From Candidatus Alkanophaga volatiphilum (GTDB taxonomy: Archaea > Halobacteriota > Syntropharchaeia > Alkanophagales > B39-G2): a DNA stretch of 54,189 nucleotides. The position numbers and the translations under genes were made by a program. The notes below the pieces were generated by a model that was given only the letters and a program-made list of their open reading frames with translations, ran no database searches and was not told where the DNA came from. Location of the stretch: contig JAPHEE010000009.1 in the NCBI GenBank assembly GCA_029259545.1, positions 2,575 through 56,763 on the forward strand, in the 5' to 3' direction. Positions 2,165 to 49,279 of the stretch are shown here, in pieces (the stretch's first letter is position 1; each line of letters opens with the position of its first letter).

Positions 2165-3232
2165 TCATATAGCTCCGGCTCTTTCTAACTCTTTTATGCG
2201 TTCCTCGTCGTAAAGCAGTGAAGATAATACCTCTTTCGTGTGCTCGCCGAGCTTTGGAACCTTCCCCACATCAGGACGCAAACCTGCGAATTTTAGTGGG
2301 ATCCCTTGCGCTCTCACACCCCTTTGCGGGCTGGAAGCCTCTAGGGGAGGAAAGCCCCCGAAACATTTTTATTCCTTCTAACTTTTATCGATGATGCCCA
2401 ACGGCATGTCCGTTGGGCGGATGGGTCCCTGACCGGCCGAGCTGATGCGTCTCCGCAAGCCGCCCGTCCCGTGTCGGAACCTCGCCCCGGCGGGAGGCAG
2501 GTCAGCTTCCCTAACCTTGGGTAGCGGCGACGTGCGGGCGCATTTGAAGACGTCAGCGACCGTGTTTATGGAAGCTGCGGGCACGCCGTGCCGCAGAGCG
2601 TCTCCACGACTTCGTCTCGCGTTCGCGCGCCCGCGTCCACTCCTCGATGATGGGTTTCAAGAGGCTCTCAAAGTTGCGATATCGATCTTCAAGCGTCTGG
2701 ACCTTGGATGATTTACTAAGTCCTCCCCCTATCGCTCGGCAAAAACGCTCCCAGATGGTCTGAGATGCCGCTGTTATGATCACTAAGCCGTCTTTCGACT
2801 CAAAGGCGTATGGTGCGATCAAAGGAACTCCAATGCCGCTAGGTCCCGGAACTTCGCCCGTCCACTCATAGATTGCAATTTCTCTGTACATGAGGTAGAC
2901 CATGCTGTCGTACATCGCGACGGCGACGTGCTGCCCCTCGCCTGTGATATTGCGGAAGCGGGGCGCCGCGAGTATCGCAGACGCCATGAGCGTCGCCGGA
3001 AATATATCGCCGATGCTGGGTCCAACCTTCACGGGCAGCCCGCCCCTTGGGACCCGTGATGCGGGGAGCACGTCCTTATGCCCGAAACCCGTGATCGTCG
3101 CGTATATGATTCTCGGGTTCACCTGCCTCAGCATTAATGACCTCAGCACCAAGATTTACGAGGAGCATCGTGCAAAACGGCCCTGCGAGGAACCCTGTAG
3201 GGTCTAATACTCTTAACCTTCAAGTGTTTCAT
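2165..3232 (-). pseudogene. CaiB/BaiF family III CoA-transferase, decayed and interrupted by a mini-element
   Basis: Fragments RVLDPTGFLAGPFCTMLLVNLGAEVI, NPRIIYATITGFG, TGEGQHV and PKLGEHTKEVL lie in different frames; internal deletions are present. Confidence 0.85.
2318..2505 (+). mobile_element. non-autonomous IS200/IS605-type mini-element (family A, copy 1) with omegaRNA-like RNA
   Basis: Inserted after CTCAC and ends GGTCAG, with no target duplication. Removal restores YPRLGKVRAQGIPLKF of the CoA-transferase. Homologous to 20760-20951. Confidence 0.85.
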
Positions 3233-3264
3233 AGTACTACTCTAACAACCATAGTAACAGAAAA

Positions 3265-3339
3265 TAGCGGGGGGTGGATTCGAACCACCGATCTCCGGGT
3301 TATGAGCCCGGCGGGATTTCCTGACTACCCCACCCCGCT
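3265..3339 (-). tRNA. tRNA-iMet(CAT)
   Basis: Cloverleaf with A1-U72 pair and GGG-CTCATAA-CCC anticodon arm. Confidence 0.95.
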
Positions 3340-3390
3340 GTTTATACTTATGGAAAAGTTCATATAAAACCTTTACGTCATTCTCTGTGA

Positions 3391-3464
3391 GGGCCGGTAG
3401 CTCAGCCAGGAAGAGCGGCAGGCTCTTAACCTGTTGGTCGGGGGTTCAAATCCCTCCCGGCCCG
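3391..3464 (+). tRNA. tRNA-Lys(CTT)
   Basis: GGGCCGG/CCGGCCC acceptor stem, anticodon loop CT-CTT-AA, GGTTCAAATCC T-arm. Confidence 0.95.
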
Positions 3465-3596
3465 CTTTTCCGTCGCAACTTCTTGATAAAAGCTACATAG
3501 TGCCGTAGTAATCGTAAAGCAGTTTTGAGTAAAAACATATAAACAACTTCTGCCAATCCCTTTCGACCCTTCCTCGGTAGGGCAGGAGTTGGGAAA

Positions 3597-4265: not shown

Positions 4266-4289
4266 TCTGAGATGAGGCTCGATTGAGAA

Positions 4290-5378: not shown

Positions 5379-5412
5379 GGTATGCCGCTTGCGGCGTGGT
5401 GGGGGATGTCTG

Positions 5413-6963: not shown

Positions 6964-6990
6964 TTTCTCCCTTCTGATTTCTCCCAACCC

Positions 6991-8511: not shown

Positions 8512-8611
8512 TTCGCGCCTGTCCTCCCAATGCGTCGATTAATAGTTAAGATTCGGTCAGGTTAAGATTGAGTCCCGCAGGTTATAAATGTTGGGTTGCA
8601 AGGGGCATATA

Positions 8612-8896
8612 TGAGGGGGCACGAGGCACCGTCGTGACGCTCCGCACCGAGTACATCCCATTGCTAAGGCACCGTCCCGATGTTTCAACGCCGACGGCGT
8701 GAGCCAATTGGAGGGCGGTGGGTCGAATGCCACTTGGGCGTGTCAGCAGCGCCCTGGGGGTTTGCAGTGATCGCTGCGCCACTCCATACGAGGCGACCCG
8801 CACGGGCTAGCTGACGCAGCCCTCGACGGGAGCCGCCCCCAGTCACGTGGTTCGGCGAGCGAGTGTCATAGCCGCAGGCGTCCCCCGGCGCCCTCA
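8612..8896 (+). ncRNA. candidate structured ncRNA (unassigned)
   Basis: TTATAAA at 8582-8588, long-range 5'/3' pairing with G-U pairs on the + strand, several internal hairpins, no credible ORF. Confidence 0.45.
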
Positions 8897-8965
8897 GCCC
8901 CACCCCCACGTTAAAGGCTTAAAAAGGGAGAGCCGCTTTCGTCCCCACAGCTAAGGGGTGGTAGG

Positions 8966-9592: not shown

Positions 9593-9798
9593 GCGCCCTC
9601 CGCCCTCGCTTAGCAAGGGGTTCCCGGGGAGGTTGGGAAGTGCGGTTTAAACGAACCGCTCCCCGCCGGGCGAGTCACCGCAGCCCGCCGCAGGACATAC
9701 CCACGTCCCAAACATTCAGAGTTAAATTAATACCTCTACCAGCCCCCCACCTTCCTAATTCATCCCCGCCTCAGGACGAGCATTCTTAGCGACCGAAG
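9593..9798 (-). mobile_element. non-autonomous IS200/IS605-type mini-element (family B, copy 1; right end degenerate)
   Basis: Reverse complement aligns with 38843-39057; preceded by TTTAC. Confidence 0.8.
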
Positions 9799-17337: not shown

Positions 17338-17466
17338 AGACCTCTCCATTATTTTCCGAGCCCCACGGCATTGCTCCGTCCTTCATTCCACTTGGTATAT
17401 AATAGCCCAGTTGGTATTAAACTCCGTGATATTCAAGCAAAGATGGTACTGCAAGCGCTTGTTCAT

Positions 17467-17734
17467 AGCTGGGATAGGCGAGCCTCTCCCGACTGGAGGC
17501 GGAGCTTCTTTAAGCCTCTCCGCTCCGCCTTATAGCCCCGCTCCGGAGCCTCACGACGTTCGGGCTGCTCATCTCAGCCCCTGACCGGAGCTGAGAATTG
17601 AAGCGAGCTATACGGTGTGGGCAGGCGTCGTGACGCCGGAGGGGAGCGTAGCTTCGTGCCGCACGCTTTCCAACCTCCCTCTAACTCCCAATGCCTCCGG
17701 TGGAAGCCCTGCCTCCAGTTGGGGAAGAGGTCAC
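17467..17734 (+). mobile_element. non-autonomous IS200/IS605-type mini-element (related to family B)
   Basis: Follows TTCAT and ends gaagccc...GAGGTCAC. Removal restores the palindrome gcaagcgc-ttgttcatgagcat-gcgcttgc. Confidence 0.75.
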
Positions 17735-20671: not shown

Positions 20672-20977
20672 CTAACGCCTCAGCAGCTCCTTTAAGAGCG
20701 AGTAGAGCAAGTAAGGGAGAGAAAAGACGAACGCACCGAACATGTAGCAGCCGAGACAGCTGACCTGCCTCCCGCCGGGGCGAGGTTCCGACACGGGACG
20801 GGCAGCTTGCGGAGACCGCATACGGCTCGGTCAGGGAGCCGTCCTCAGTCAGCATTTAGCTGACCGAATCATCGAAAAGTTAGAAGGAAGGAATAAAATG
20901 TTTCGGAAAGCGGGCTTTCCTCCCCTTAGAGGCTTCCAGCCCGCAGGAGGTGTGAGAAAGACCTTGAGCCAGAGCAT
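20672..20977 (-). pseudogene. 37-aa hydrophobic small ORF interrupted by a mini-element
   Basis: Removing 20760-20951 yields MLWLKVFLTCLGCYMFGAFVFSLPYLLYSLLKELLRR*, with GGTGA upstream. Confidence 0.55.
20760..20951 (-). mobile_element. non-autonomous IS200/IS605-type mini-element (family A, copy 2)
   Basis: Follows CTCAC and ends GGTCAG; the last ~40 nt are identical to 2318-2505. Confidence 0.85.
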
Positions 20978-24158: not shown

Positions 24159-24159
24159 T

Positions 24160-36947: not shown

Positions 36948-37060
36948 CGCTTCTTGTTTGTGGGGGTCGGTTTAAATATTTTTCCTTAGCTTCGAACGGA
37001 TTCGCAGCATAATCGACAAGATTAAACTTTTGAAGCCCAACGGTTATTAAGGGATGTGAG

Positions 37061-37354
37061 ATGTTCAAGTGGTGGCTGCTGGGCTTTGCGCTAGTGTTGC
37101 TTGGCATTCTGATAACACTCGCGGGCACGCTTTACGAGAGTTACAAAGCAGCGCAAGAAGGACGTTATTGGCACGGGCGTACTGGAGAGTGCCGGGAGAA
37201 CGTTACAGGCGGCGCGGCGGGTGTCGTAATGATAGGTCCTTTTCCGATAGTGTTCGGGACGGACGTGGCGGCGGTGAAGCTCGTGATCGTGCTGACGATA
37301 GTGCTGATGGTGGTTGCGTTCGTCCTACTGCTGCTGTCCGTGCGTCTGCTTTAG
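37061..37354 (+). CDS. DUF131/TIGR00304-type membrane protein
   Basis: GGAAGVVMIGPFPIVFGTD signature. Confidence 0.8.
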   Translation: MFKWWLLGFALVLLGILITLAGTLYESYKAAQEGRYWHGRTGECRENVTGGAAGVVMIGPFPIVFGTDVAAVKLVIVLTIVLMVVAFVLLLLSVRLL

Positions 37355-37357
37355 GCG

Positions 37358-38275
37358 GTGGGCATGAGGAGGAGATGGCTGCAGACGCTCCTCGGCGTGC
37401 TGATATTTGCGCTGCTCCTCTACAAAATAGACGTTAGGGAGGTTCTCGAAGCTTTTAAGGGCGTGAACTTGCTGTACTTCGGGCTTGCCGCCGCCGCTTA
37501 CTTCTGCTACGACGTGCTCATGGCGTTCCGTTTGCATTATCTGCTGTCGAGGCTCGGAGCAAGGAACTCTTTTAAGGAGGCGTTCTTTGCGCACATGGGC
37601 GGTATGGTGGCGTCGGACGTGACGCCCGCCAGAAGCGGCTACCTGCTGACGCCTTACTTCCTGAAAAAGGATGGGAGTGCGGGTATTACGGAGGGTCTTG
37701 CTGCCATTCTTGCGCCACAGGGCTTCGAGTTCGTGATGAAAGTTGTCGGTGGCTTTTTGGGCTTTCTATTTTTTGTCTCAGCGCTCGATACAAACCTACT
37801 CGTACCGCTGAGCGTCGCCGCCGTTGCATTTCTTATGATAGGTGTCTTGACGCTTGTGATCCTCTGGACGAGAGAGGGAATTTCCTCGTCACTGCTTTCT
37901 AAAATCCCGGTGCTAAGGAGATTCGACGAGAAATATAATAGGGTCAAAGACCTGAGTCTCGAAATTAAAAGCGATTTGCCCGTGATATTTGTGATATACA
38001 TGGCATGCTGGCTGCTAATGGGGCTGCAGTGGTTTTTCTTGGCTAAGGCGCTCGACATCGATCTATCGTTCGTCGCATGTTTCCTCCTGCACCCGCTGAT
38101 AACACTGCTTGCATTCGTGCCGCTGACGCCCGCAGGTTTTGGAATAATGGAAGGTGGCACCGCCGCCGTCTTCCACATGCTCGGAATTAACGTCGGCGTT
38201 GCGCTCACGTTCTCGCTGCTCGTGCGGATTAATTGCATAGTCGTGGACGCCATTGGGCTGAAAGAAGTCTTCTGA
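37358..38275 (+). CDS. lysylphosphatidylglycerol synthase TM domain / UPF0104 flippase-like protein
   Basis: VTPARSG and PLTPAGFGIMEG motifs; multiple TM segments. Confidence 0.8.
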   Translation: MGMRRRWLQTLLGVLIFALLLYKIDVREVLEAFKGVNLLYFGLAAAAYFCYDVLMAFRLHYLLSRLGARNSFKEAFFAHMGGMVASDVTPARSGYLLTPYFLKKDGSAGITEGLAAILAPQGFEFVMKVVGGFLGFLFFVSALDTNLLVPLSVAAVAFLMIGVLTLVILWTREGISSSLLSKIPVLRRFDEKYNRVKDLSLEIKSDLPVIFVIYMACWLLMGLQWFFLAKALDIDLSFVACFLLHPLITLLAFVPLTPAGFGIMEGGTAAVFHMLGINVGVALTFSLLVRINCIVVDAIGLKEVF

Positions 38276-38307
38276 AGCTTTTTATCTTTTACTCCAAACA
38301 TTAGAGC

Positions 38308-38652
38308 ATGCCGGGAATTGAACTGAGATGGGTATTTCTGGGGACGTTAATAATGATCGTCGTGGTAATAGCTTTCGGCGCTTTGCTGGGCGGCGTTATA
38401 GGGGGCTTTGCCGGCGTTCTCGGCTATCTCGTCGGCGGCATGCTCATAGGCAGGCTTTCCGCAGGCAAGACCATCTTGGAGGCAGGAATCGCAGGCGCAT
38501 TGACGGTCCTAATAGGTGCCTTCGCCCTTCTACGTGCGGGTGGCATTCCTGCAAGCATCGTAGCCATGGCGTCGTTACTTGGCTTCCTGATAGCGCTGCT
38601 CGGCGGCTGGCTCGGCGAGAAGTGGCAAGAGGCGGCGGGAGGTGGGAAGTAG
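38308..38652 (+). CDS. small Gly-rich membrane protein (4 TM)
   Basis: Hydrophobic 114-aa ORF. Confidence 0.7.
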   Translation: MPGIELRWVFLGTLIMIVVVIAFGALLGGVIGGFAGVLGYLVGGMLIGRLSAGKTILEAGIAGALTVLIGAFALLRAGGIPASIVAMASLLGFLIALLGGWLGEKWQEAAGGGK

Positions 38653-38842
38653 AGCAAAAGGCGTAGGGCGTACGGCATGCTCGTTTCGACCCGATCAGCA
38701 CAGCACGGCACGGACGCCTCTCCTCACTCTCCTCACATCGAACGAGTCCGAGCGGATCGGTTCGGTTACGGTTACGGCTACGGGCAACTCCTCCTAGGGT
38801 TCTTACTGTCCTCGTCGTCGGGTTGGGAGCTCGGACCTTTAC

Positions 38843-39057
38843 CTCCAGTCGCTAAGAAGGCTCGTCCTGAGGGCGGGATGATTAGGGGGTTGGAGGCAGT
38901 TAATTTTTATCCGAAGATGATGTGAGTTCGGAACGAGGCCGTGGGTACATCCTGCGGTCAGGGGCTGCTGTGACCCAGCCCGACGGGAGCGGTCCGTCCT
39001 GCACACTCCCCAACCTCCCCCGGTGGACGCCCCTTGCTAAGCGAGGGCGGAGGTCAC
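38843..39057 (+). mobile_element. non-autonomous IS200/IS605-type mini-element (family B, copy 2)
   Basis: Follows TTTAC and ends ccccttgctaagcgagggcggaGGTCAC; homologous to 9593-9798. Confidence 0.85.
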
Positions 39058-39196
39058 TTTGTGGGGAACCCGCCTCCGCCCCGCTCAGCCTCCGACTAAG
39101 CTCAGCCCCGCCTCAGTCTCCGCCTCGCTCGGTCTCAGGGGGCACCGACGATTGTCCGGCATGATTTGCGGCTCGCTCGGTTCCGACGGTCGAAGC

Positions 39197-40069
39197 TCAA
39201 AGCTCCAGCTTCAGGACCTTCTGGGCGTTTTTGACGAAGACCTTTTCGAGGACTTCGGGTTTGAAGCCCTGAGATTCCCAGTCTTGGAAGAGGCGCTCGT
39301 AGCTGAACCATGGGTAGTCAGAGCCGAACATTATCTTGTCTTGGAGGCGGGTGTTGATCTCTCGCTTGAAACTCTCGTCGAAGTAGCGAGGAAGCCAACC
39401 GTGAAGCTCGTTATACACGTTGCCCTTATGGATGAGGACGGACGCCATTTCCTTCTCGAAAGGCCAGGCGTAGTGAGCGCATATGATCTTGAGCTTCGGG
39501 AAGTCCGCAGCCACGTTGTCCACGTGCGGGATCGGGCGTTCCGTCCATAGTTTGATGCCCCAGCCGCCAGGCTGCCCCGAACCGTAAGCAAGGTGCCCGA
39601 CCCAGATTTTGATGGGGACGTCGGCATCCTCGCAAACCTCATAATACGGATACCAGCGGTAGTCATCCGCTGGAATTCCGGTGAAGGCGCCGCAGACCGC
39701 AACCCCAAATGTCTTAAGGTCGTAAATGCAACGCTCTAACTCTTTGACGCCGGCACGTCCCCAGTCCGGGTCGAGAGCTACCCAAGCGCCGACGATCACG
39801 TCAGGATACTTCTTTATCAGCTCGCCGACGTAATCGTTCTGCCTTTTTACTTCATCGAGGTCTTTCCAACCTATAGACCTAAACCCCCCTGTCCATACTA
39901 CACCGCAGACGTCGGCGTTCTTCATCCCGGCTATCCACTCCTCTTCGCTCATTATCACCTTGCTAGAAGCCTTGAAATACTTCATCAAGATGTCAAACCG
40001 CTCCTTGTCTTTAAAGGGAATTCTGCCCTCGACCCCTATCTGCACCTGCAGGTCTATTGCCTTCACCAT
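39197..40069 (-). CDS. amidohydrolase_2 family protein
   Basis: WYPYYEVCED, VAADFPKLKIICAH and KIMFGSDYP motifs. Confidence 0.85.
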   Translation of the reverse strand: MVKAIDLQVQIGVEGRIPFKDKERFDILMKYFKASSKVIMSEEEWIAGMKNADVCGVVWTGGFRSIGWKDLDEVKRQNDYVGELIKKYPDVIVGAWVALDPDWGRAGVKELERCIYDLKTFGVAVCGAFTGIPADDYRWYPYYEVCEDADVPIKIWVGHLAYGSGQPGGWGIKLWTERPIPHVDNVAADFPKLKIICAHYAWPFEKEMASVLIHKGNVYNELHGWLPRYFDESFKREINTRLQDKIMFGSDYPWFSYERLFQDWESQGFKPEVLEKVFVKNAQKVLKLEL

Positions 40070-40192
40070 GTTTTCTTCTGAAGTTTTGATCCAGATAATG
40101 TTTTAGTGTTGTGCACCTTGCTGTTCAGATAGGCGTACGACCAGTACGAACTCGCACAAGCCCATAAAGAAGTTTGTTTAGAGGGCATTGTG

Positions 40193-40463
40193 GTCAGCTA
40201 CTCCCGTCTGAAGACGGGAGCTTGCAGGTGGTCTCATGCGGGCAATCATCGACCCTGCGACGTCCCGGCTGACGGCGCCCTCGGGCCGGGAGCCCGCCCC
40301 TAACCCGGTCGGTCGAAGCCCTCACAGCCCTACAGCCGTTCCTCCGAGAAACACCTCGGAGTCCTTAAGCTCTGGCTACAAAGATTCGAAACTTCACCGT
40401 TTAAAAACCTAACGGAGGTGAAAAGGCGGCACCCTCGTTAGGGGTTTCCTGCCGCCAAAACTT
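40193..40463 (-). mobile_element. non-autonomous IS200/IS605-type mini-element (family C)
   Basis: Right-end hairpin gctcccgtc-ttca-gacgggag-tagcTGAC, left end aagttttggcggcaggaaacccc after GTCAT, internal TTTTTAAA. Confidence 0.8.
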
Positions 40464-40525
40464 ATGACTTTGATGTCAGAGAAAAACAGTTAGCACGTTT
40501 CCTAATTTCAGCTCGTCTAGGGGTG

Positions 40526-42046
40526 TTACACGAAAATGCACTTCGCTCGTCTTTTTATTTTTTGAATGAGGGGGTGTTCTTTCCAAGGCTCACCGCATAC
40601 GAACACGAACTCCGCACCCTTGCTCATCTCCAGCAGCTTTAAGACGTTTTCCAGCGCCGTTGTCAGCCCTTCATAATCCATGGGCGTCGGCACTTCTGAC
40701 TGCCCTATTGGATACGTCTCTTGGAGTTCCAACGGGTACGGCCCAAACGGCGGCTTTACGAGGAATACATGGTCGAAAGCCTGTAAGTCGAGCTTCAGAG
40801 CCTTGCAAGCATCTTCGAGCGTCGTGTCCAGGGCGGCGACAAGCGTATTGCCTGAAACTTCAAAGCGGTCGAGCTTCTTCGCATATTTCAGAACTTCGGG
40901 GCGGCGTGCCGACGTTTCTCCGAGGTAAAAGAAAGAACGTTTCGTAGAAACGTCGTACTTTTCAAGCAACTCAGCGTGCTCCAAAACTTTTTTCAAGCCA
41001 CTGAGGAGCAAAGGGTGCGCCCTGCATCGGCGCTCCAAAAGTTCCCAGAGCCTGTTTTCCCGAATTGCCTGCTTCACTGCCCTTATCTCTGCGAACGTCA
41101 CATAAAGGTTATGCTCGGCGAGAAGCCTCGCTCTTTCCTCCCGGTCGCACTCCTTCAGGTATCTGACGTCATATTTCGAACACACCGGACACGAGCACGG
41201 CAGGTAATGCAAATCTTCGAGGAAGTAGGTCCCATCGCTCGTCAGGTACCTGTCGTCTTTTGCGTAGAGGGCGTAGGCGGCGGAGTCGAAGAGGTCGCAG
41301 CCGAGGGCGACGGCGAGCGAGAAGAATATGGGGTGTCCAACGCCGAAAAGATGCACGGGCGCATCCGCGGGCAGTCGCTGCTTTACAGCGATGATGATTT
41401 CCACAAGCTCTCTGTATCTGTAGTCCTCTAGCAGAGGAACGAGCCCACCTATCGGGTAAACGTCAAAACCCATTTCTGAAACCGCCGCCGCACATCGCTC
41501 TCGCAAGTCGAGGAACGTCGAGCCTTGTATCGGGCCCGCTAGTAACGGCCTTGCGCCTCGTACCTCACCCCCTCCCCCCTCTCGTCCCCTAGAAATTCGC
41601 TTTGCCTCTTCAAGCCTGCGTAGCGTCTCAGCAAGGTCGCTTTCCGCCCGCTCCCGCTGGGCGTCGGGCGGTGTTGGTATATCCAGCGGGACGATGACGT
41701 CGGACCCTATCCCCAACTGGAACTCTACGATCTCCCGGTTGGAAACCTCGACGTCGCCATACTCATAGAGCTGGTACGAGCCGGAGTCCGTCATCAGAGG
41801 CTTTTTCCAGCCTAAAAGCTCGTGGACGCCGCCTTCTAAGGCTTTCTCTCGCAACTCCTCTTTCTTATGAATGATGTAAGCGTTCGTGATTATGATTTCG
41901 GCGCCGAACCTTTCCAGCTCGTCGGGTCTTATCAGCACCAAATTTGGATTCACTACCGGCATGATCGTCGGCGTTTCTACGACGCCATGCGGTGTTTCCA
42001 GCCTACCTATCCGTCCCATCAGGTCTTTGTGCAAAACCTCAAACAC
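40526..42046 (-). CDS. tgtA: archaeosine tRNA-guanine(15) transglycosylase
   Basis: ETPTIMPVVNP, MTDSGSYQ, PVHLFG, GCDLFDSAAY and PCSCPVC motifs; GTG start inferred. Confidence 0.93.
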   Translation of the reverse strand: MFEVLHKDLMGRIGRLETPHGVVETPTIMPVVNPNLVLIRPDELERFGAEIIITNAYIIHKKEELREKALEGGVHELLGWKKPLMTDSGSYQLYEYGDVEVSNREIVEFQLGIGSDVIVPLDIPTPPDAQRERAESDLAETLRRLEEAKRISRGREGGGGEVRGARPLLAGPIQGSTFLDLRERCAAAVSEMGFDVYPIGGLVPLLEDYRYRELVEIIIAVKQRLPADAPVHLFGVGHPIFFSLAVALGCDLFDSAAYALYAKDDRYLTSDGTYFLEDLHYLPCSCPVCSKYDVRYLKECDREERARLLAEHNLYVTFAEIRAVKQAIRENRLWELLERRCRAHPLLLSGLKKVLEHAELLEKYDVSTKRSFFYLGETSARRPEVLKYAKKLDRFEVSGNTLVAALDTTLEDACKALKLDLQAFDHVFLVKPPFGPYPLELQETYPIGQSEVPTPMDYEGLTTALENVLKLLEMSKGAEFVFVCGEPWKEHPLIQKIKRRAKCIFV

Positions 42047-42086
42047 AATTATCAAGAAGGAACCATAGTATAACAAGCAATCGCAT

Positions 42087-43271
42087 ATGGACGAAGCGAC
42101 GAAGAGGTTCGTGAGACGGAAATTTGCGGAATATTATAGGGGGGCGGAGCTGAGGCTGCCGTCGGAGCTCGAGCATCGGGAGTGGGGCTTTGTACTTTTC
42201 GATGCCAGTTATCCAAGGAAAACGGTGATGCGGCGGCACAGAGCGTTTACGACCTCTACGGCTCTCGTTTCATACCTCAGGAAAAATGCGCCTGCGCACG
42301 TTTATTATTCCTCCGCTTTATACGAGCGTCCGTCTGCGGAAATGGATGAAAAGGGCTGGCTCGGCGCCGACCTCATCTTCGACCTCGATGCCGATCACAT
42401 CGTCGACGACAAAAGGAGCTACCCCGAGATGCTTGATATCGTAAAGAAGGAGACTTTGAAGCTTTTGGACTTCCTCATCGGCGATTTCGGCTTCGAGGAA
42501 GACTTGATAGAGATCGTTTTTTCTGGATCGAGGGGTTATCATGTGCATGTTCGAGATGAGAGTGTCAGAAAACTTGGGAGCAAAGAAAGGCGGGAAATTG
42601 TGGATTATGTGACTGCAAGAGGCATGAAAATAGGTAGATTTATCGTGGACGCCGTGATAGTGGACGAAAAGGGTAAGAAGCGGGTGCTGAAGCTAATATC
42701 TGAGGGCTGGGGCTCAAGGTTGCTCCGCGGGCTGGTAGAATTCTTGGACAGAATTGCGGAGATGGACGACGAGGAGGCGTTCCGCTCGCTGCTCAGCATA
42801 AGAGGCGTTGGGGAGAAGCGGGCAGCGGCGCTCATGAAGGTAATAAGGGACGCTGCCGTCATGCAAGACATAAGAAATGGGTTGTTACCTCCACATCTAA
42901 GACCGGTTTGGGAGAAAATCATCGAGAGGGAGCGTGTCAAATACGAGGATCATCCCGACGAGCCTGTGACGGCGGACGTGAAGCGGTTGATAAGAATGCC
43001 AACATCACTGCACGGTAAGACTGGTTTCTTGGTCAAGCCGCTGTCCGTGCGAGAGCTTGAGGGCTTTGACCCTTTGGAGGATGCCGTCGTCTTTGGCGAC
43101 GACGAGGTGCGCGTCGAGATACGCCGCCCAGCAAGTATCTTCTTAAAAAGTACCACATACAAGGTAGAGGAAGGGACGGAGAAACTCCCGATGTATGCTG
43201 CTATCTTTTTGATGTGCGCAGGCGTGGCTTCGCTGAGCGGCTCGGCTCAAGATCGAGACGCCGTAGCATAA
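42087..43271 (+). CDS. priS: DNA primase small subunit
   Basis: REWGF, DLIFDLDADH, FSGSRGYH and RLIRMPTSLHGKTG motifs. Confidence 0.95.
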   Translation: MDEATKRFVRRKFAEYYRGAELRLPSELEHREWGFVLFDASYPRKTVMRRHRAFTTSTALVSYLRKNAPAHVYYSSALYERPSAEMDEKGWLGADLIFDLDADHIVDDKRSYPEMLDIVKKETLKLLDFLIGDFGFEEDLIEIVFSGSRGYHVHVRDESVRKLGSKERREIVDYVTARGMKIGRFIVDAVIVDEKGKKRVLKLISEGWGSRLLRGLVEFLDRIAEMDDEEAFRSLLSIRGVGEKRAAALMKVIRDAAVMQDIRNGLLPPHLRPVWEKIIERERVKYEDHPDEPVTADVKRLIRMPTSLHGKTGFLVKPLSVRELEGFDPLEDAVVFGDDEVRVEIRRPASIFLKSTTYKVEEGTEKLPMYAAIFLMCAGVASLSGSAQDRDAVA

Positions 43272-43302
43272 CGGGCTGGTGCGACGGATGGGTGCGGAAG
43301 GG

Positions 43303-44055
43303 ATGAACATAGAAAGGCTTTGGGAAATTTTGTATAAAGAGAGAAGCTCGCCTTTATTGCAAGAACTCCCACAAAACTTTTATGAGGAAGTGCGTGATTA
43401 CATAAGGAGGCTAGAGCAGGAGAAGGAAAAGGCGGACGACACGAGAAAAGCGTTCATTGAAGATGAAATAAGGAGCGCAAGAGCAAAGATCGAAGACATA
43501 TTTAGGAGGCGTATCGGTAAGATAGTGAAGATGGCGAGCGCGGGCGCGAAGACCTGCCCGAAAGGGCTGACACCCGATGAGAAGGCGATATTTGAGGGTG
43601 TTGCGAGTTGCGTCGAGGAAGGGAGGAAACGCATCATGCGAGCAATATTTGGCGAAACGAAGGATGAAAAAAAGGAGAATGAGAGTGGTTCATACGCGTC
43701 ATCACAGGATGATGTCGTCGCGGGGACTACTGTGGTGAGCGTTGATGTGAAGCAGCTGGCAGAGCAAGAAAGTGTGAGTGAGCACGCTAAAGAGGCTGCC
43801 AGTGGTGATGCAGGAGCGGCTGATGCTACGGATGAGATGGCGGTTGCTAACAGAGATGCGACAGCAAACGCAGCTGTAATGGAGAAGTTATGCGTAGTGC
43901 GTATGCTTGAGAGCGTACCTGCGTTCATCGGCGTAGACGGCAGAGTTTATAAAGTGAGGAGGGAGGATGTGCTCACACTACCTAAGGACAATGCTGAGAT
44001 CCTGTGTAAGAAGGGCGTCGCCGTGCAGCTGAGCGTCAGGAGGAGGTGGTCTTAA
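43303..44055 (+). CDS. GINS subunit (Gins51-like) with low-complexity linker
   Basis: [16 protein letters not shown] and C-terminal B domain FIGVDGRVY; follows priS. Confidence 0.8.
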
Positions 44056-44056
44056 G

Positions 44057-44341
44057 ATGAAAATGCCGAAGAAAATTAGGACGTTCTGTCCCTACTGCAA
44101 GAAGCATTCTATACACGAAGTCGAAAAGGTGAAAAAGGGGAAGGCGTCGTCATTAAGCTGGATCGCGAGGCAGAAAAAGCGAAAGAAGGCGAGAATAGGA
44201 AACAGCGGGAAGTTTTCGAAAGTACCAGGCGGTGACAAGCCGACTAAAAAGGTATTTTTGAGGTATACATGTACGGAGTGCAAGAAGTCGCATACGAGGG
44301 AAGGCTTCAGAGTGTCGAGGTTCGAACTTGTGGAGATGTAA
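44057..44341 (+). CDS. rpl44e: 50S ribosomal protein L44e
   Basis: MKMPK...CPYCKKH, KPTKK and CTECKK motifs. Confidence 0.95.
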
Positions 44342-44367
44342 CGCTGCGTATGAGAGAGGTGGGTGGG

Positions 44368-44550
44368 ATGGTGCTGAGGGTGTCGAAGAACAAGTTTTTA
44401 CGTGTGAAATGTGATGACTGTGGGAATGAGCAGATAATATTTGAAAGAGCGAGTACTGTCGTTCGTTGCTTGGTCTGCGGGCGGACGCTGGCAGAGCCGA
44501 GGGGCGGACGGGCTGAGATTAAAAGCAAGGTCGTGGAGGCGTTAGCATGA
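44368..44550 (+). CDS. rps27e: 30S ribosomal protein S27e
   Basis: [16 protein letters not shown]...CLVCG. Confidence 0.95.
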
Positions 44551-44566
44551 ACCATAGGCGAGGAGA

Positions 44567-45337
44567 ATGAAGAGGAAGAAATGGCCTGAAAAGGGCGAGT
44601 TGGTCGTGTGTACCGTTCGGGAGGTCAAGGACTTTGGCGCATTCGTAGATATTGAAGAGTACGGAAAGGAAGGCTTGATACACATTTCGGAAATAGCGTC
44701 GGGCTGGGTGCGTTACATTCGGGACTATGTCCGAGAGGGGCAGAAGGTCGTATGCAAGGTTCTCCACGTGGATAAGGCAAAAGGGCATATTGACCTCTCC
44801 CTGAAGGACGTGAAGCCGGCGCAGCGTGCGGAAAAGATTCGAGAGTGGAAGAACGAGCAGAAGGCGAAGAAGTGGCTTGAGCTCGTTGCGGAATTGCTGA
44901 AAATCAGCGAGAAGGAGAAGGAAGCTCTTGCTGAGAAGCTGCTTGACGCCTACGGCAGCATATATTCGGCGTTTGAGGATGCTGCAATCAATGGTGTGGA
45001 GTCGCTGAAAGGTATCGTCGGCGAGGAGTATGCCGAGGGGATTCATGAAGTTGCGACCGCGAACATAAAGCCGCCGACGGTCAGCGTCTCGGCGAACGTC
45101 GAGCTGAGCTGTCCGCTGCCGAACGGCGTGGACGTGATAAAAGAGGCGTTAAAGAAGGCGATGAAAGCCGCCGACGGTAACGTGAAGCTCGAAATCATCT
45201 ACATGGGAGCGCCCCGCTATCAGTTCAGGGTGGAGGCTCCTGACTATAAAAAGGCTGAGGGCGTCTTAAGGAAGGCGGCTGATGCCGCAATCAAGGTCGT
45301 TACCAAAAATAAGGGCACAGGCGTTTTCCACCGATGA
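44567..45337 (+). CDS. eif2a: translation initiation factor 2 alpha subunit
   Basis: S1 domain (GLIHISEIASGWV, KGHIDLSLK) and GAPRY motif. Confidence 0.95.
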   Translation: MKRKKWPEKGELVVCTVREVKDFGAFVDIEEYGKEGLIHISEIASGWVRYIRDYVREGQKVVCKVLHVDKAKGHIDLSLKDVKPAQRAEKIREWKNEQKAKKWLELVAELLKISEKEKEALAEKLLDAYGSIYSAFEDAAINGVESLKGIVGEEYAEGIHEVATANIKPPTVSVSANVELSCPLPNGVDVIKEALKKAMKAADGNVKLEIIYMGAPRYQFRVEAPDYKKAEGVLRKAADAAIKVVTKNKGTGVFHR

Positions 45338-45495
45338 CTTCTAAAATAAAAAAGTGTGCGAAGTGCGGAGAATATACGCTTAAAGACGTGTGTGTGCGGT
45401 GCGGCGAGCGCACCCACAACCCGCTGCCGCCGCGTTTCTCGCCCGCTGATCGCTACGGTAAATACCGGCGGATGATAAAATACGGCAGGGCATAG
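45334..45495 (+). CDS. nop10: H/ACA RNP subunit Nop10 (missed by the ORF track)
   Basis: MTSKIKKCAKCGEYTLKDVCVRCG...PPRFSPADRYGKYRR; conserved position after eIF2-alpha. Confidence 0.93.
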   Translation: MTSKIKKCAKCGEYTLKDVCVRCGERTHNPLPPRFSPADRYGKYRRMIKYGRA

Positions 45496-45543
45496 GGGTA
45501 AGTGGCGGCGCGAAAGGTCGCTGTTAGCGACCGTACAGTAAAA

Positions 45544-46407
45544 ATGCGTATCAGCTCGTTTTGGAAACTTACAAGGCTCGAGCACGGTATAATGTACGGG
45601 GTGGGCGTTTTAGTAGGTATGTTAGTGGCCGGCGGCTTGAATCTCACTTTTTGGCAGAAAGCAGTTTTTGGCTTCTCGACGGCACTGCTCATCGAGGCTG
45701 GGACCTTTGCGCTGAACGACTATTGTGACTACGAGAGCGACGTGGCGAACGAGCGTTACGACCGCCCGCTCGTGAGCGGCGAGCTTTCGCCGAATGTCGC
45801 CCTTTACACCGCGGCTGTTGCGACGACGCTCGGCGTGCTGGCGGCGGCGCCGCTCGGCGCCCTGTGCTTCAGAGTGGCGGCGGCGCTCGCAGCGCTCGGC
45901 ATCGCCTACGACATTTGGCTCAAAAAGTTGGGCGTCGTCGGGAACTTTTATATAGGCTTCACGATGGCGGTTCCCTTCCTCTTCGGAGCGCTCATCGTCG
46001 GCGTCGTTAATGAGGCGGTGCTCACGCTCTTCGCCATCTCGCTGCTCGCAGGCGTCGGCAGGGAGATCATGAAGGGCATCATGGACGTCAGGGGCGACGC
46101 CCTCAGGGGCGTGCGGACGGTCGCCCTAAGGTACGGCGAGACCGCCGCCAGAAGGTCGGCGGCGGCGCTCTTCCTCGCAGCGACGGCACTCAGCCCGCTG
46201 CCGTTCTTCGCTGCGGAGCCGTACCGCATGAACCTTGCGTACCTCGTGCCGCTGATATTTGCGGACGCCGCCTTCGTCCACGCTTCACTAGTGCTGCTTA
46301 GGGGCGAAAGTGTGCAGAAGCTCCGCCGAGAAACGCTGCTCGCCACGCTCCTCGGACTTTTAGCGTTCCTCTCCGGGGCGGTTGTGAGCTTAAAGCTTAG
46401 TTTTTAG
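45544..46407 (+). CDS. digeranylgeranylglyceryl phosphate synthase (UbiA family)
   Basis: NDYCDYESD...RPLVSG and GREIMKGIMDVRGD motifs. Confidence 0.85.
   Translation: MRISSFWKLTRLEHGIMYGVGVLVGMLVAGGLNLTFWQKAVFGFSTALLIEAGTFALNDYCDYESDVANERYDRPLVSGELSPNVALYTAAVATTLGVLAAAPLGALCFRVAAALAALGIAYDIWLKKLGVVGNFYIGFTMAVPFLFGALIVGVVNEAVLTLFAISLLAGVGREIMKGIMDVRGDALRGVRTVALRYGETAARRSAAALFLAATALSPLPFFAAEPYRMNLAYLVPLIFADAAFVHASLVLLRGESVQKLRRETLLATLLGLLAFLSGAVVSLKLSF
46259..46407 (+). repeat. direct repeat, copy 1 (3' end of DGGGP synthase gene)
   Basis: 25-bp exact match 46259-46283 = 51968-51992; similarity continues to the stop codon. Confidence 0.8.
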
Positions 46408-46518
46408 GCTAGCCTTCTGCGGCGGCGCCGTCGCCGTCGTGCACCCGTTCCGTGGCGGGAGGGTTGCCGCTCGGAGATTTAGGGCGCCCTAGTTTCTAGT
46501 TTCTGCAGCGGTGGTAAT

Positions 46519-47213
46519 TTAGCCGTGTCTTCTACTCCTACCGAATTCAAGCAAGTCTTCGAACAGTTGCGACAGGGGGTACGCCTTTTGGAATCGCCGG
46601 AACTGCTCGTAGCAATCATCGGGAATGTACACTCTTATGTCCAGTTTGGTCATGGTATCCACTATGCGTCTATGTCGCACTCCAAGGTGGCGAACCACAC
46701 GTTATCAGGAATCCCGTGGATTTTTAAAATGTAAGCTTCGCCCACGACCTCCCTCCACCGCTCCCTGACCTTACGCTTAACAGACAGTATCACGGCTTTA
46801 GAAGGGTCCTTGTCGAACGTCTCCCTGTCAGGAATCAGGAAATCGGGCGTTTCCCTGCCGATCTGCCTCTTCCTTGCGTCTCTCTCATACCTGACGCCGA
46901 GGCTATCTATTAGGAGTCTAAAAATCTCCTCAGTCGTTTTACCGGCTCTTGACATTCTGGACTGCTGTAGGGACTGCTCAAGCCTCGCCGGATCCACTTT
47001 ATCTTTCCATTTCTCCCTAATCCTCTCTTCATATCGCCTGTAGATCTCGTGGCACTTTCTTTCGAGCATCCTCGCAAGCTCCGAAGGTCTGACCTTCCCC
47101 ACAAGCCCTCCGAACCCAAGCTCGCTCTTCGCCTCCTCCAGAATCTCCATGACTGACGGGATCTCCTCAAGCCATTGCGGTTTAGGATTCTCGTTCATCT
47201 GAAACTTTATCAT
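46519..47213 (-). pseudogene. type II restriction endonuclease (EcoRII C-terminal-like), frameshifted
   Basis: QSRMSRAGK, PDF and SVKRKVRERW motifs. The frame breaks near 46665; the alternative frame continues IVDTMTKLDIRVYIPD to TAA at 46519. Confidence 0.75.
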
Positions 47214-48427
47214 CGCTTCGCCCTCAGCACTATTATACTCTCTTTGGCTATGGTCGTCCCTTTTTCTCCTCGAACGTTCTCCGGGGCGTTCTGCCAAGGC
47301 AGCCTTTTCGATGGGATCTCCCGTCTGATGAGCGTTTCGAATTCAAGACCGAGAGCCTCTCCGAGCTCCACGATTATCCGGTCGGTCGGGACTTGCACCC
47401 TTCTGACCGTCCTGTTGCCCACGACGAAGCAGCAACAGCCGCTCAAAACCCCACGAAGCTGCTCAAGACACCTGAAAAGGTCTGAGAAGAACCAGAGAAC
47501 GTCGTTGTAACGCTCTCTGCTTTTCTTCTTGATCTCCTCCAAGGTCCGTTTTAACGTTTCCGAGGGGAGCTCCTCGCCGTCCGTGGGGCGTCCCCCAAGA
47601 GAGGCTTTATCAACTCCCGTGACCCCTCTCAATCCGAGCCAGAGCGCCGGGTATTTTGAGAACTGACCGTATGCGACCGTCGTTCTGCTGTCCCCGTACG
47701 GCGGGGACGTGACCACGAGATCGACTCCCCCCTTAAGAGGCAACCTTCGGGCGTCCCCCAGCAGAACTTCACAGAAAACGTTTTCGTCGCAAGCCCTGTA
47801 GAATTCGACCATCCTAGGAATACGCTCCTCGACGTGTTCGATGAATGTCTGAAGGACGTTCGGGTTGTGCTTTTTGAGCTTTTCCGCCGGCATCCTCATA
47901 ATCTTGAACTCCCCGGGCTTGAGATTCGAGACTTTGCGAACGGTCAGGCTGAAGCAGGTGGCGAAGAAAAAGTAAGCCCTTTCTCCCTTGAGAGCGTCTA
48001 GACGTCGTCTTATCACCGCCAGCTCCCTTGCGACCTGGGGCTTGAACCAGTATTCAAGATTTGGGATTTTCGGGACTTCGACTTCGAGCCGATCGAACCT
48101 CAACCCACGAACGTCCTCCTCTATCGCCTCCCGGAGTTCCAGCCAGAGCCTCTCAAGCTCCGATGGCTCCAAAGGCGTCGTTTTCGCCTTAGCAATGATG
48201 AGCGCCAAAGGATTTATGTCTATTCCTATGCTGTTCCTGCCGAGCAGCATGCTCTCCACGAGGACGCCGCCAGACCCGCAAAATGGGTCGAGAATGACGT
48301 CCTTTCGCTCAGAATAACGCTCTATGAGCCTTCTGGCGATCTGGGGGATCATCCTCGCTGGGTAGGGGTGGAGCCCATGGGTCAAATACTGCGTGTCCGC
48401 ACCGGCGAATCTCCAATCTTCACCCAT
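47210..48427 (-). CDS. DNA methyltransferase (N4-cytosine type, SPPY)
   Basis: HPYPARMIP, DPFCGSG and VTSPPY motifs. Confidence 0.9.
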   Translation of the reverse strand: MGEDWRFAGADTQYLTHGLHPYPARMIPQIARRLIERYSERKDVILDPFCGSGGVLVESMLLGRNSIGIDINPLALIIAKAKTTPLEPSELERLWLELREAIEEDVRGLRFDRLEVEVPKIPNLEYWFKPQVARELAVIRRRLDALKGERAYFFFATCFSLTVRKVSNLKPGEFKIMRMPAEKLKKHNPNVLQTFIEHVEERIPRMVEFYRACDENVFCEVLLGDARRLPLKGGVDLVVTSPPYGDSRTTVAYGQFSKYPALWLGLRGVTGVDKASLGGRPTDGEELPSETLKRTLEEIKKKSRERYNDVLWFFSDLFRCLEQLRGVLSGCCCFVVGNRTVRRVQVPTDRIIVELGEALGLEFETLIRREIPSKRLPWQNAPENVRGEKGTTIAKESIIVLRAKR

Positions 48428-49065
48428 TGAGCCGAGCTCTCTGAGATCGTTTGAGCAGAGTTTTATATAGGGATTTCTGAAGATTTCGATCCCACGCACT
48501 TCAACTCCAGTGGGGTTCTGAAGTGCGCCGCCGCAAGGTGGCATGACGCAGCCGAGCCCGCCTCTTTAAGTTCTTACTCAAAGTCTAGACGCCCTGAAAT
48601 ACGCATCGGCTGGGGAAGGAATGGGAGTAACGGCAACAAGAGCCGTTAACGCCGTTTGCTGAAATTCAACGCAGAACACCAATCGAAGAGAGCGACTACG
48701 GGTGCGTTTGGCAAGGAACATCGCTTGAAGTCATTTACGAGAAGGAGAAATGCATTCAGCATGAGGAATGCGTCGTTGAGCGATTTTGTCCCACGAGAGC
48801 ATTTGAAAGGTCAAGCGGTCTCAACCGAGAGCGATGCTTCAACTGCGGATTCTGCGTTTTCGCATGCGAGGGGGGCGCATTCAAAGGCGAACTCGGAAGC
48901 ATTTTCGTCGCAGGAAGAAAAGTTCCGATTACGCTACGCCTCTCAAACAGGGCAAAGGCACGAAAACTCTGCATACTTTTGAAGAAGCGGATTGAGGAGG
49001 GTGAATTTCTGCTTTAGTTGGAGCATATTGAAATTACATGTTACTAAGAGTGCAACGGTGGAAGG

Positions 49066-49279
49066 GTCAGCTTCTCCCGTCTTTAGACGGAAGATTGCTC
49101 TCGCTTAGTGGGACGCCGTCCCGCTTCATCGAGCCGATCAGGGTGGCTGACCACACCCCTCACGGGCTGGAATACTGGCATAAGCCGCTCCAGCCCATCC
49201 GAATTAAAATTGTAGTTAAAGATATAAATAACTTCCACCAATCATGGTTAAAACCATAGGCTTCCTTGGCGGCAGAGGT
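49066..49279 (-). mobile_element. non-autonomous IS200/IS605-type mini-element (family C-like right end)
   Basis: Right end cttccgtc-taaa-gacgggag-aagcTGAC, left end after TTCAC, internal TATTTATA. Confidence 0.8.

What the first reader, a model, noticed from the sequence alone, without database searches (positions are those of the whole stretch)
2318..49279. Seven protein-free IS200/IS605-type mini-elements that look like self-expressing omegaRNA guide cassettes
Seen: elements at 2318-2505(+), 9593-9798(-), 17467-17734(+), 20760-20951(-), 38843-39057(+), 40193-40463(-) and 49066-49279(-), 188-271 bp long, about one per 8 kb. Each sits after a short motif (CTCAC x2, TTTAC x2, TTCAT, GTCAT, TTCAC). 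Each has a left-end segment, an internal TATA-like box (weak in 17467), a GC-rich structured body and a right-end hairpin ending TCAG, TCAC or TGAC (degenerate in the 9593 copy). There is no target duplication and no tnpA/tnpB in the window. Established: IS200/IS605 elements insert 3' of a short target motif without duplication, and the TnpB omegaRNA spans the right end with its guide taken from the 3' flank. Inference: these elements discarded all protein coding but kept promoter plus RNA. They would form a dispersed, multi-family guide-RNA repertoire served in trans by TnpB or nuclease-dead derivatives, for element retention or for regulation.
Basis: partly seen in the sequence, partly recalled or inferred. 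Interest (0 to 1): 0.88.

Follow-up and report, generated by a model that had tools for sequence, protein, structure and literature searches.

The report
Protein-free transposon remnants carrying guide RNAs
Six short repeats in this archaeal DNA are stripped-down IS200/IS605 jumping genes that lost their protein gene but kept its promoter joined to the guide-RNA module, a kind of element already described in bacteria and archaea.

Summary
They belong to four repeat families of an archaeal, MAG-like genome: A (E1, E4), B (E2, E5), C1 (E6) and C2 (E7). The genome holds 185 such loci, 1.9% of the assembly. The seventh, E3, is not one element. It is two right-end modules lying back to back.

The elements sit 3' of TCAC, TTAC or TCAT. 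One metagenome contig joins 20759 to 20952 and so shows an exact empty site for E4 with no duplication. Family B equals the left end, tnpB promoter and last ~125 nt of 1.2-kb tnpB-only elements in the same genome. C2 has a degraded parent. A and C1 have none.

The retained right part is a guide-RNA (omegaRNA) module of the Rfam HgcC class. Its helices covary, and a pseudoknot motif changes in step with the terminal bases between families.

This matches published palindrome-associated transposable elements (PATEs) and standalone omegaRNAs (Gomes-Filho 2015; Meers 2023; Altae-Tran 2021/2023). Transcription and use by TnpB in trans remain inferred.

Verdict: anatomy right, function untested, novelty low. 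These are new members of a known kind.

The parts
2318..2505 (+). E1, family A mini-element. Left-end hairpin, BRE/TATA near 2360-2373, CGATGATG near 2389-2397, HgcC-like RNA body, terminus GGTCAG.
   Evidence: Rfam HgcC 22.8 bits at 2420-2518.
2314..2317 (+). TCAC target motif (TAM) directly 5' of E1.
   Evidence: TCAC precedes 17 of 18 family A copies.
2506..2521 (+). Predicted guide of the E1 RNA (3' flank, not conserved between copies).
   Evidence: The HgcC model's unpaired 3' tail runs 13 nt into the flank. Flank columns 0.39. Inference only.
9593..9798 (-). E2, family B mini-element with a mutated terminus (GGGCGC for GGTCAC). Probably immobile.
17478..17592 (-). Right-end/RNA fragment of family D. 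Terminus GGCTCGC where the family has GGCTCAC. No left end.
17596..17734 (+). B-like right-end/RNA module ending GAGGTCAC. No left end. Lies head to head with the D fragment.
   Evidence: nhmmer B hmm 126-272; row E3right in A2.
20760..20951 (-). E4, family A mini-element. Absent from one strain in run X7.
   Evidence: Joint 20759|20952 in X7. HgcC 28.3 bits at 20747-20843. MFE z -3.5.
38843..39057 (+). E5, family B mini-element. Left end 1-47 and TATA at 38900-38910 match the parents' left end and promoter. The last ~125 nt match the parents' tnpB 3' end plus right end.
40193..40463 (-). E6, family C1 mini-element (3 copies in the genome), after TCAT, ends GCTGAC. No parent found.
49066..49279 (-). 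E7, family C2 mini-element, after TCAC, ends GCTGAC. Left and right ends match a degraded tnpB element at C31:6636-7903.
   Evidence: MFE z -4.3.

Best explanation
The loci are PATE-type (palindrome-associated, MITE-like) non-autonomous derivatives of IS1341-group IS200/IS605 elements in an archaeon.

Anatomy. Each intact copy is an internal-deletion product. It keeps the left end: the target-adjacent boundary, a subterminal hairpin, the former tnpB promoter with its TATA box, and a GAAG..ATGATG string that spans the tnpB start codons in the parent. This left end is fused to the last ~115-190 nt of the element. That stretch is the whole omegaRNA scaffold (HgcC class) plus the right-end hairpin and cleavage motif.

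Shown:
- Family membership and exact ends.
- Insertion 3' of TCAC without duplication.
- Parent elements for families B and C2.
- Conserved, covarying RNA helices.
- A loop motif complementary to the last 5 nt, which differs between families in step with the terminus.

Inferred:
- A Y1 TnpA encoded elsewhere in the genome moves the elements as single strands.
- The old tnpB promoter transcribes the scaffold and about 16 nt of 3' flank.
- TnpB from full-length copies binds this RNA in trans and cuts the rejoined empty site (TAM plus flank), so that recombination restores the mini-element. This is the retention or homing model of Meers 2023.

The confidence given covers the whole statement. The DNA-level identity alone I put near 0.9, and the inferred RNA and TnpB steps near 0.5-0.6.
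For: Repeats and ends. Families have sharp ends: 18 copies (A), 32 (B) and 8 (C). There are 185 loci, 35,017 bp, in the 1.85-Mb assembly. The target motif is TCAC in 17 of 18 A copies and TTAC in 23 of 32 B copies.

Empty site. One X7 contig (depth 8.8, 72 nt on the shorter side, no ambiguity) skips exactly 20760-20951. A family A copy also sits directly behind the GGTCAC terminus of a B copy at C1:71523.

Parents.
- E5 positions 1-47 match the left ends of tnpB elements at C20 and C3 at 93-94% identity. Positions ~90-215 match the stretch starting 5-10 nt after the TNB domain in C6, C3, C2, C20 and C23 at 75-78%.
- The tnpB ORF (362 aa, PF07282 82 bits) runs to 14 nt from the right end.
- The parents' TATA box and start region are kept in the mini-element.
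- E7's ends match C31.
- A tnpA-bearing element on C6 has TTAC plus a left end of the B/D type. The genome has 7 Y1 matches and 39 TNB matches.

RNA module.
- Rfam HgcC matches 25 places in the genome at E<=0.01, 2 of them above the gathering score. They include right ends just behind tnpB. HgcC also matches 11 of 18 family A copies.
- Helices named on 40 family B modules: 87.3% of cells paired against 81.5% in shuffles (0 of 500 as high). Cells changed on both sides: 67 against 27 (0 of 500). Slid controls: 36-51% paired.
- Arm-swap control: own against swapped MFE -7.3/-3.9, -3.4/-0.9 and -10.3/-3.5 kcal/mol.
- Pseudoknot: the reverse complement of the last 5 nt lies 55-125 nt upstream in 15 of 17 (A), 36 of 67 (B) and 15 of 20 (D) copies. 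Most other families' motifs score 0-2 in A, B and D bodies; the family C motif is an exception at 6/17 (A), 14/67 (B) and 11/20 (D). The solved ISDra2 omegaRNA pairs -5..-3 with -103..-105 (PMC10097598, passages).
Against: - No transcript evidence.
- MFE z-scores are unremarkable for 6 of 8 modules.
- Families A and C1 have no tnpB-bearing parent in this assembly. Family A is absent from 78 other genomes of the class.
- The exact pseudoknot complement is missing in 31 of 67 B modules and 11 of 17 C modules.
- Family B TnpBs carry Gly at the canonical RuvC-II Glu position in 4 of 4 intact copies. Cleavage depends on an unverified rearranged site.
- The uniform architecture within a family could come from one founder deletion followed by copying, not from selection on the RNA.
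- The helices tested were named from the same sequences.
Confidence: 0.7

Rival explanations
1. The elements are purely parasitic mini-transposons. They need only their ends for TnpA. The RNA module rides along because the founder deletions happened to spare it, and it is not used by TnpB.
For: - Many copies have a damaged terminus or lack the pseudoknot complement: E2, 31 of 67 B modules.
- A and C1 have no cognate tnpB.
- E3 shows that modules decay into fragments.
- Within a family one founder could explain the uniform breakpoints.
Against: - Five families with different left ends or termini (A, B, C1, C2, D) all keep at least ~115 nt of right end, including the upstream pseudoknot strand. 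That is far more than the subterminal hairpin.
- Internal hairpins more than 50 nt from the end keep pairing through changes on both sides.
- The TATA columns are better kept than the neighbouring spacer.
Confidence: 0.2
2. The cassettes are a host-recruited guide repertoire. RNAs from dispersed mini-elements direct a catalytically altered or dead TnpB to flank-like sites for gene regulation rather than transposon retention.
For: - Family B and C17 TnpBs have Gly at the RuvC-II Glu position, 5 of 16 long ORFs.
- In a relative, an HgcC-like RNA gene stands as its own unit beside a tnpB.
- Overexpression of an archaeal PATE RNA improved growth (PMC4615843, abstract and passages).
Against: - Glu-to-Gly at RuvC-II is the signature of a branch predicted to stay active through another Glu (PMC10691335, section 8).
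- These tnpB genes still lie between transposon ends.
- Guides are simply the local flanks. A search for second targets found only chance-level matches without the cognate TAM.
Confidence: 0.07
3. They are ordinary structured small-RNA genes (for example C/D-box sRNAs, suggested by GATGA and CTGA strings) that are merely multi-copy, not transposon remnants.
For: GATGATG and CTGAC strings occur in families A and B. The bodies are GC-rich and structured.
Against: - A GAAG-ATGATG string in family B resembles the parent's tnpB start region.
- CTGAC is the pseudoknot loop.
- No snoRNA family matched at E<=1 in the window.
- The ends equal transposon ends, and an empty site exists.
Confidence: 0.02

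Closest known systems
PATEs (palindrome-associated transposable elements) of haloarchaea, including the transcribed PATE RNA VNG_R0052 of Halobacterium salinarum (Gomes-Filho 2015, PMC4615843; abstract and passages seen)
   Same: Fused left and right ends of IS1341-type elements without a protein gene. Archaeal and intergenic. The RNA shares a right-end hairpin motif with Rfam HgcC.
   Different: Different host lineage and sequence families. Here there are at least four families and 185 loci in 1.85 Mb. Transcription is not shown here.
PATE-like elements of Geobacillus stearothermophilus and the TnpA/TnpB retention model (Meers 2023, PMC10055086; passages seen)
   Same: Protein-free IS200/IS605 elements that keep left and right ends and encode omegaRNAs that must be served in trans by TnpB. 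They have TAM and TEM motifs and scarless excision.
   Different: That system is bacterial and its activities were measured. Here every activity is inferred, and two families lack any cognate tnpB.
Standalone omegaRNAs acting in trans (Altae-Tran 2021, known to me only as cited in PMC10691335; passages seen)
   Same: Mobilised guide-RNA loci without an effector or transposase, in genomes that also hold effector-bearing loci.
   Different: I did not see the primary paper. The systems named there are bacterial.
Rfam RF00062 HgcC family RNA (Methanocaldococcus jannaschii and other hyperthermophiles)
   Same: Same helix order, a CUGAC-type loop, and a terminus GGAGGAGGUCAG followed by an unpaired tail. 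Two copies in this genome score above the family's gathering score.
   Different: The window's own copies score 22.8 and 28.3 bits against a cut-off of 50. Family A has an extra 5' hairpin. Families C1 and C2 do not match the model.
ISDra2 TnpB omegaRNA (Nakagawa 2023, PMC10097598; passages seen)
   Same: The scaffold ends at the transposon right end. A pseudoknot joins the bases just 5' of the guide to a segment about 100 nt upstream.
   Different: No sequence likeness. The pseudoknot here is inferred from complementarity that changes between families, not from a structure.

Membership tests
IS200/IS605 non-autonomous element (PATE/MITE) | Insertion 3' of a short conserved motif with no target duplication | tested here: met
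   TCAC in 17 of 18 (A) and TTAC in 23 of 32 (B) copies. Empty site for E4 joins 20759|20952 with no shared letters.
IS200/IS605 non-autonomous element (PATE/MITE) | Both ends shared with elements that carry tnpB or tnpA | tested here: inconclusive
   Met for B and C2. The D left end is shared with B-type parents and with the C6 tnpA element. Not met for A and C1 in an 88%-complete assembly.
IS200/IS605 non-autonomous element (PATE/MITE) | Subterminal hairpins at left and right ends rather than terminal inverted repeats | tested here: met
   Left-end and right-end hairpins with compensatory variants. Left and right termini are not inverted copies of each other, as read.
IS200/IS605 non-autonomous element (PATE/MITE) | Mobilisation by a Y1 TnpA | not testable with these tools
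   7 Y1_Tnp matches in the genome. The presence/absence difference at E4 between strains fits mobility.
TnpB omegaRNA | Scaffold overlaps the 3' end of tnpB and ends at the right end in the parent element | tested here: met
   For family B the homology starts 5-10 nt after the TNB domain, and the ORF stops 14 nt before the terminus.
TnpB omegaRNA | Pseudoknot between the bases just 5' of the guide and an upstream segment | tested here: inconclusive
   Complement present in 15/17 (A), 15/20 (D), 36/67 (B) and 6/17 (C) copies. Most other families' motifs score 0-2 in A, B and D bodies; the family C motif scores 6/17 (A), 14/67 (B) and 11/20 (D). No covariation within family B, because the terminus never varies.
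TnpB omegaRNA | Conserved secondary structure with compensatory changes | tested here: met
   17 pairs with changes on both sides; 0 of 500 shuffles reach the score. Arm-swap control. Caveat: the structure was named from the same sequences.
TnpB omegaRNA | Transcribed, bound and used by TnpB, with the guide taken from the 3' flank | not testable with these tools
   RNA runs are held as contigs only.
Rfam RF00062 HgcC | Covariance-model score at or above the gathering score of 50 bits | tested here: not met
   Window copies score 22.8 (E1) and 28.3 (E4); E2, E5, E6 and E7 are not listed at E<=1. Elsewhere in the genome 2 of 25 matches pass, at 53.5 and 51.4 bits. The window copies are relatives, not members by Rfam's rule.
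Archaeal C/D-box sRNA | Paired C/D and C'/D' boxes with guide regions; match to a snoRNA model | tested here: not met
   No such Rfam match at E<=1 in the window. A GAAG-ATGATG string resembles the parent's tnpB start region.

The most novel reading that the evidence does not exclude
Families A, C1 and D are true orphans. They would be promoter-plus-omegaRNA cassettes that spread and persist with no cognate tnpB in the cell. They would be served by heterologous, RuvC-II-rearranged TnpBs of family B, or act as TnpB-independent small RNAs. The genome's ~185 cassettes would then work as a shared guide pool whose role goes beyond keeping each element in place. The stand-alone HgcC-like gene placed divergently beside a tnpB in a related genus (L105) would be a fixed, host-side version of the same split.
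Probability: 0.1. Interest if true: 0.6.

Novelty: new member of a known kind. Interest (0 to 1): 0.3.

Why it matters
The value is descriptive. The window gives a clean archaeal example of how IS200/IS605 elements shrink to a promoter-plus-guide-RNA cassette.

- It comes with exact ends, target motifs for four families and a natural empty site.
- It ties the old Rfam family HgcC (function listed as unknown in the 2015 and 2017 papers I saw) to the omegaRNA of IS1341-type tnpB. In the held library only one paper, from 2015, holds both 'HgcC' and 'TnpB'. The library lacks most subscription journals.
- The between-family switch of loop and terminus motifs is a ready-made natural covariation set for the omegaRNA pseudoknot.
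- The TAM, scaffold and TnpB combinations could be mined for compact thermophilic editors.

It does not open a new category. Retention in trans and standalone omegaRNAs are already in print.

Tried and rejected
- Rfam at gathering scores found only six tRNAs in the window. The HgcC link appeared only at E-value thresholds.
- RNAalifold on MAFFT alignments gave poor consensus structures because of indels: 34 pairs of which 2 compensatory for A1, and 9 pairs for A2. I therefore named the helices by hand and counted them.
- A first arm-swap test on fixed 34-nt tails showed no difference (-12.5 against -12.2). I replaced it with hairpin-specific extraction.
- Single-sequence MFE z-scores were not informative for 6 of 8 modules.
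- The syntenic regions of the same-genus genome G001 gave no clean empty sites. The intergenic DNA is rearranged, and a family C copy sits at the E3-equivalent place.
- A search for second genomic targets of 101 predicted 16-nt guides (up to 2 mismatches) gave 63 guides with extra matches. That is about the chance rate for this genome size, the cognate TAM was not regularly present, and no conclusion follows.
- The simple TATA regex under-counts the boxes (13 of 18 in A), so I rely on the column conservation instead.
- The parent of family A was sought by blastn, nhmmer and HgcC hits, and with the tnpB of the G064 locus. Best identity was 37% to a fragment, and nothing was found.
- The C/D-box reading was rejected.
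- Parts of the stretch without cover in runs X5-X8, and contigs stopping at the edges of E2, are not counted as evidence.
- RNA runs X1 and X3 hold 0.98-0.99 of the sampled words of 36000-45900. They say nothing about expression.
They may bear on which RuvC-II-rearranged branch the family B TnpB belongs to (SI of PMC10691335) and on the list of haloarchaeal PATEs (File S4 of PMC4615843).
- Klein 2002 (origin of HgcC), Altae-Tran 2021, Nety 2023 (TnpB processing its own mRNA) and the IS608 guide-pairing papers are recalled, or known only through citing passages. I did not read them.

Full report
**What is there**

The window is contig C9:2575-56763 of a 1.85-Mb, 89-contig, 88%-complete assembly. 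The organism is an archaeon: the window encodes archaeosine tRNA-guanine transglycosylase TgtA and primase PriS.

I read the seven loci and compared them with the whole genome. blastn gave 16 to 74 hits per element. Copies covering at least 80% of a query fall into families:
- A (E1, E4): 18 copies.
- B (E2, E5): 32 copies.
- C: 8 copies, of which 3 are of the E6 type (C1) and 5 of the E7 type (C2).

Profile searches gave 20, 134, 24 and 109 hits for A, B, C and a further family D. These merge to 185 loci, 127 of them at least 150 bp long. Together they make 35,017 bp, or 1.9% of the assembly. The window holds exactly the seven, and no other sizeable repeat lies in it.

**Ends and targets**

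- Family A follows TCAC in 17 of 18 copies and ends GGTCAG in 15 of 18.
- Family B follows TTAC in 23 of 32 copies and ends GGTCAC in 28 of 32.
- C1 follows TCAT (3 of 3) and C2 follows TCAC (5 of 5). Both end GCTGAC (rows).

The strongest single result is a natural empty site. One contig of the independent metagenome run X7 joins 20759 directly to 20952. It skips exactly the 192 nt of E4, with no letter shared between the two sides. A family A copy also lies directly behind the GGTCAC terminus of a family B copy at C1:71523. This is a nested insertion into a TCAC. E2 has a mutated terminus.

**E3 is not one element**

Positions 17478-17592 are the reverse complement of the right-end part of family D. 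On its own strand, family D reads TTAC, then AAAATGTCGCTAAGAAAGCC..., and ends ...GGAGAGGCTCAC. Positions 17596-17734 are a B-like right-end module. The two lie head to head and neither has a left end.

**Link to tnpB and tnpA**

The genome has 39 matches to the TnpB TNB domain and 7 to Y1 TnpA, none in the window. Sixteen of 36 TNB places lie in ORFs of at least 320 aa.

Family B:
- E5 positions 1-47 match the left ends of tnpB elements at C20 and C3 at 93-94% identity.
- Positions ~90-215 match the stretch that begins 5-10 nt after the TNB domain in C6, C3, C2, C20 and C23 at 75-78% identity.
- In the parent the 362-aa ORF (PF07282, 82 bits; related to solved TnpB and Cas12f chains) runs to 14 nt from the terminus. 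The retained piece is therefore the tnpB 3' end plus the right end.
- The parents carry TTTTTATAC about 20 nt before the ATGATG start of tnpB. The mini-elements keep the TATA box and a GAAG-ATGATG string.

Other families:
- E7's left end and terminus match a degraded element at C31, whose tnpB is split into pieces of 139 and 159 aa.
- A tnpA-bearing element on C6 has TTAC and a left end of the B/D type.
- Families A and C1 have no parent here.
- Family A is absent from 78 other genomes of the class, including the same-genus genome.
- Family B-type elements with the same ends occur at 76-85% protein identity in MAGs labelled as other archaeal groups.

**The RNA module**

At E-value thresholds Rfam HgcC (RF00062) matches several sets of places:
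- E4 (28.3 bits) and E1 (22.8 bits). Each match runs 13 nt into the 3' flank.
- The right ends just behind tnpB in five parents, at 27-40 bits.
- 25 places in the genome at E<=0.01, two of them above the 50-bit cut-off: a family A copy at 53.5 bits and a family B copy at 51.4 bits.
- 11 of 18 family A copies.

The HgcC consensus ends GGAGGAGGUCAG followed by an unpaired tail. That is the same terminus as families A and B.

On 40 family B modules, six of them from parents, I named six helices and the pseudoknot and counted pairs:
- 87.3% of cells pair, against 81.5% in shuffles (0 of 500 as high).
- 67 cells are changed on both sides, against 27 in shuffles (0 of 500).
- The covariation score is 0.115 against 0.069.
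- Slid controls give 36-51% paired.

Caveat: the structure came from these same sequences.

Swapping hairpin arms between variants costs 2.5 to 6.8 kcal/mol. Thermodynamic z-scores alone are weak: only E4 (-3.5) and E7 (-4.3) of 8 modules stand out.

**Pseudoknot**

The reverse complement of the last 5 nt lies 55-125 nt upstream in 15 of 17 A modules (CUGAC with GUCAG), 36 of 67 B modules (GUGAC with GUCAC), 15 of 20 D modules (GUGAG with CUCAC) and 6 of 17 C modules. Most other families' motifs are rare in A, B and D bodies, for example 0 of 17 and 2 of 67. The family C motif GTCAG is an exception: it occurs in 6 of 17 A, 14 of 67 B and 11 of 20 D bodies.

By eye, the right ends behind tnpB at C8, C4, C17 and C30 pair GUGAAC with GUUCAC, and C6:63406 pairs UGACA with UGUCA (sequences printed). 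In the solved ISDra2 complex, bases -5 to -3 pair with -105 to -103. The motif is therefore where an omegaRNA pseudoknot should be, and it switches between families together with the terminus.

**What it most likely does**

The anatomy is that of a PATE: left end plus right end with the protein gene deleted. What distinguishes it is the fusion of the old promoter to the complete guide-RNA scaffold.

The likely cycle:
1. A Y1 TnpA moves the element.
2. The promoter gives an RNA of scaffold plus flank.
3. TnpB from full-length copies uses that RNA to cut the empty donor joint.
4. Recombination restores the element.

Only the DNA-level steps are supported here. Transcription and TnpB use are inferred.

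Against a working nuclease for family B: its TnpBs and the one at C17 have Gly where RuvC-II Glu should be, 5 of 16 long ORFs. Altae-Tran 2023 describes Glu-to-Gly branches predicted to stay active through another Glu, and says some such branches are nearly confined to archaea. I did not test this.

**Comparison with what is known**

- Gomes-Filho 2015 reported RNAs at the 3' end of IS1341-type tnpB in archaea, a transcribed PATE-derived RNA, and a shared motif with HgcC.
- Altae-Tran 2023 states that standalone, mobilised omegaRNAs work in trans with compatible effectors.

What is new here is local: the families themselves, their abundance, the empty site and the between-family pseudoknot switch. 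On abundance, HgcC-class matches number 14 in this genome against at most 4 in each of the other 7 positive genomes, out of 79 genomes in the class (strict filters).

**Verdict**

This is a new member of a known kind, of moderate-to-low interest.

Noticed in passing
L105 (G064:C1:61971-65073), RNA at 1501-1603(+), tnpB at 296-1426(-): In a related genus, an HgcC-like RNA (60.9 bits, above Rfam's cut-off, 73% like family A) starts about 45 nt upstream of a 376-aa tnpB and points away from it. The two share an AT-rich TATA-bearing spacer. The tnpB 3' side is AT-rich and gave no HgcC match. The guide RNA may be a separate divergent gene there.
   Followed up: partly
G000 contigs C6:53381, C3:50338, C20:23351, C23:30599, C17:35677 (tnpB ORFs): Five of 16 long TnpB ORFs have Gly (IGNL or FGNL) at the RuvC-II position where the others have Glu or Asp. 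All four intact family B parents are among them. This fits the published RuvC-II-rearranged branches, but activity is unknown.
   Followed up: partly
window 8602-8965: A 364-nt GC-rich stretch with no long ORF, between two genes. In run X5 it is replaced by 192 other letters. It is not repeated in the genome and has no Rfam match at E<=1.
   Followed up: partly
window 17404-17452: All four laid metagenome runs skip these 49 nt just left of E3 (one contig each). The window carries an extra segment or a variant there.
   Followed up: no
G000 C1:71342-71718: A family A copy is inserted directly behind the GGTCAC terminus of a family B copy. The B element's predicted guide is therefore now the family A left end.
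   Followed up: partly
G000 C8:11706-11830, C4:38199-38330, C28, C17, C30, C20:10120-10310, C29: A further right-end class ending GGGGTAGTTCAC sits behind seven other tnpB genes, three of them with tnpA. Short protein-free copies occur at C5, C20, C2, C7 and C33. The genome therefore holds more mini-element families than the four in the window.
   Followed up: partly
L111-L114 (public MAG contigs): Family B-type tnpB elements 76-85% identical in protein, with the same left and right ends, lie in MAGs labelled Thermococci, Methanosarcinales and Desulfurococcaceae. This suggests horizontal spread, or mis-binning, among archaea of hydrothermal sediments.
   Followed up: partly
L042 (G001:C19:14600-16800), 308-527(-): At the place syntenic to E3, the same-genus genome has a family C copy and an unrelated 351-aa gene instead. 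The intergenic site has been hit repeatedly.
   Followed up: no
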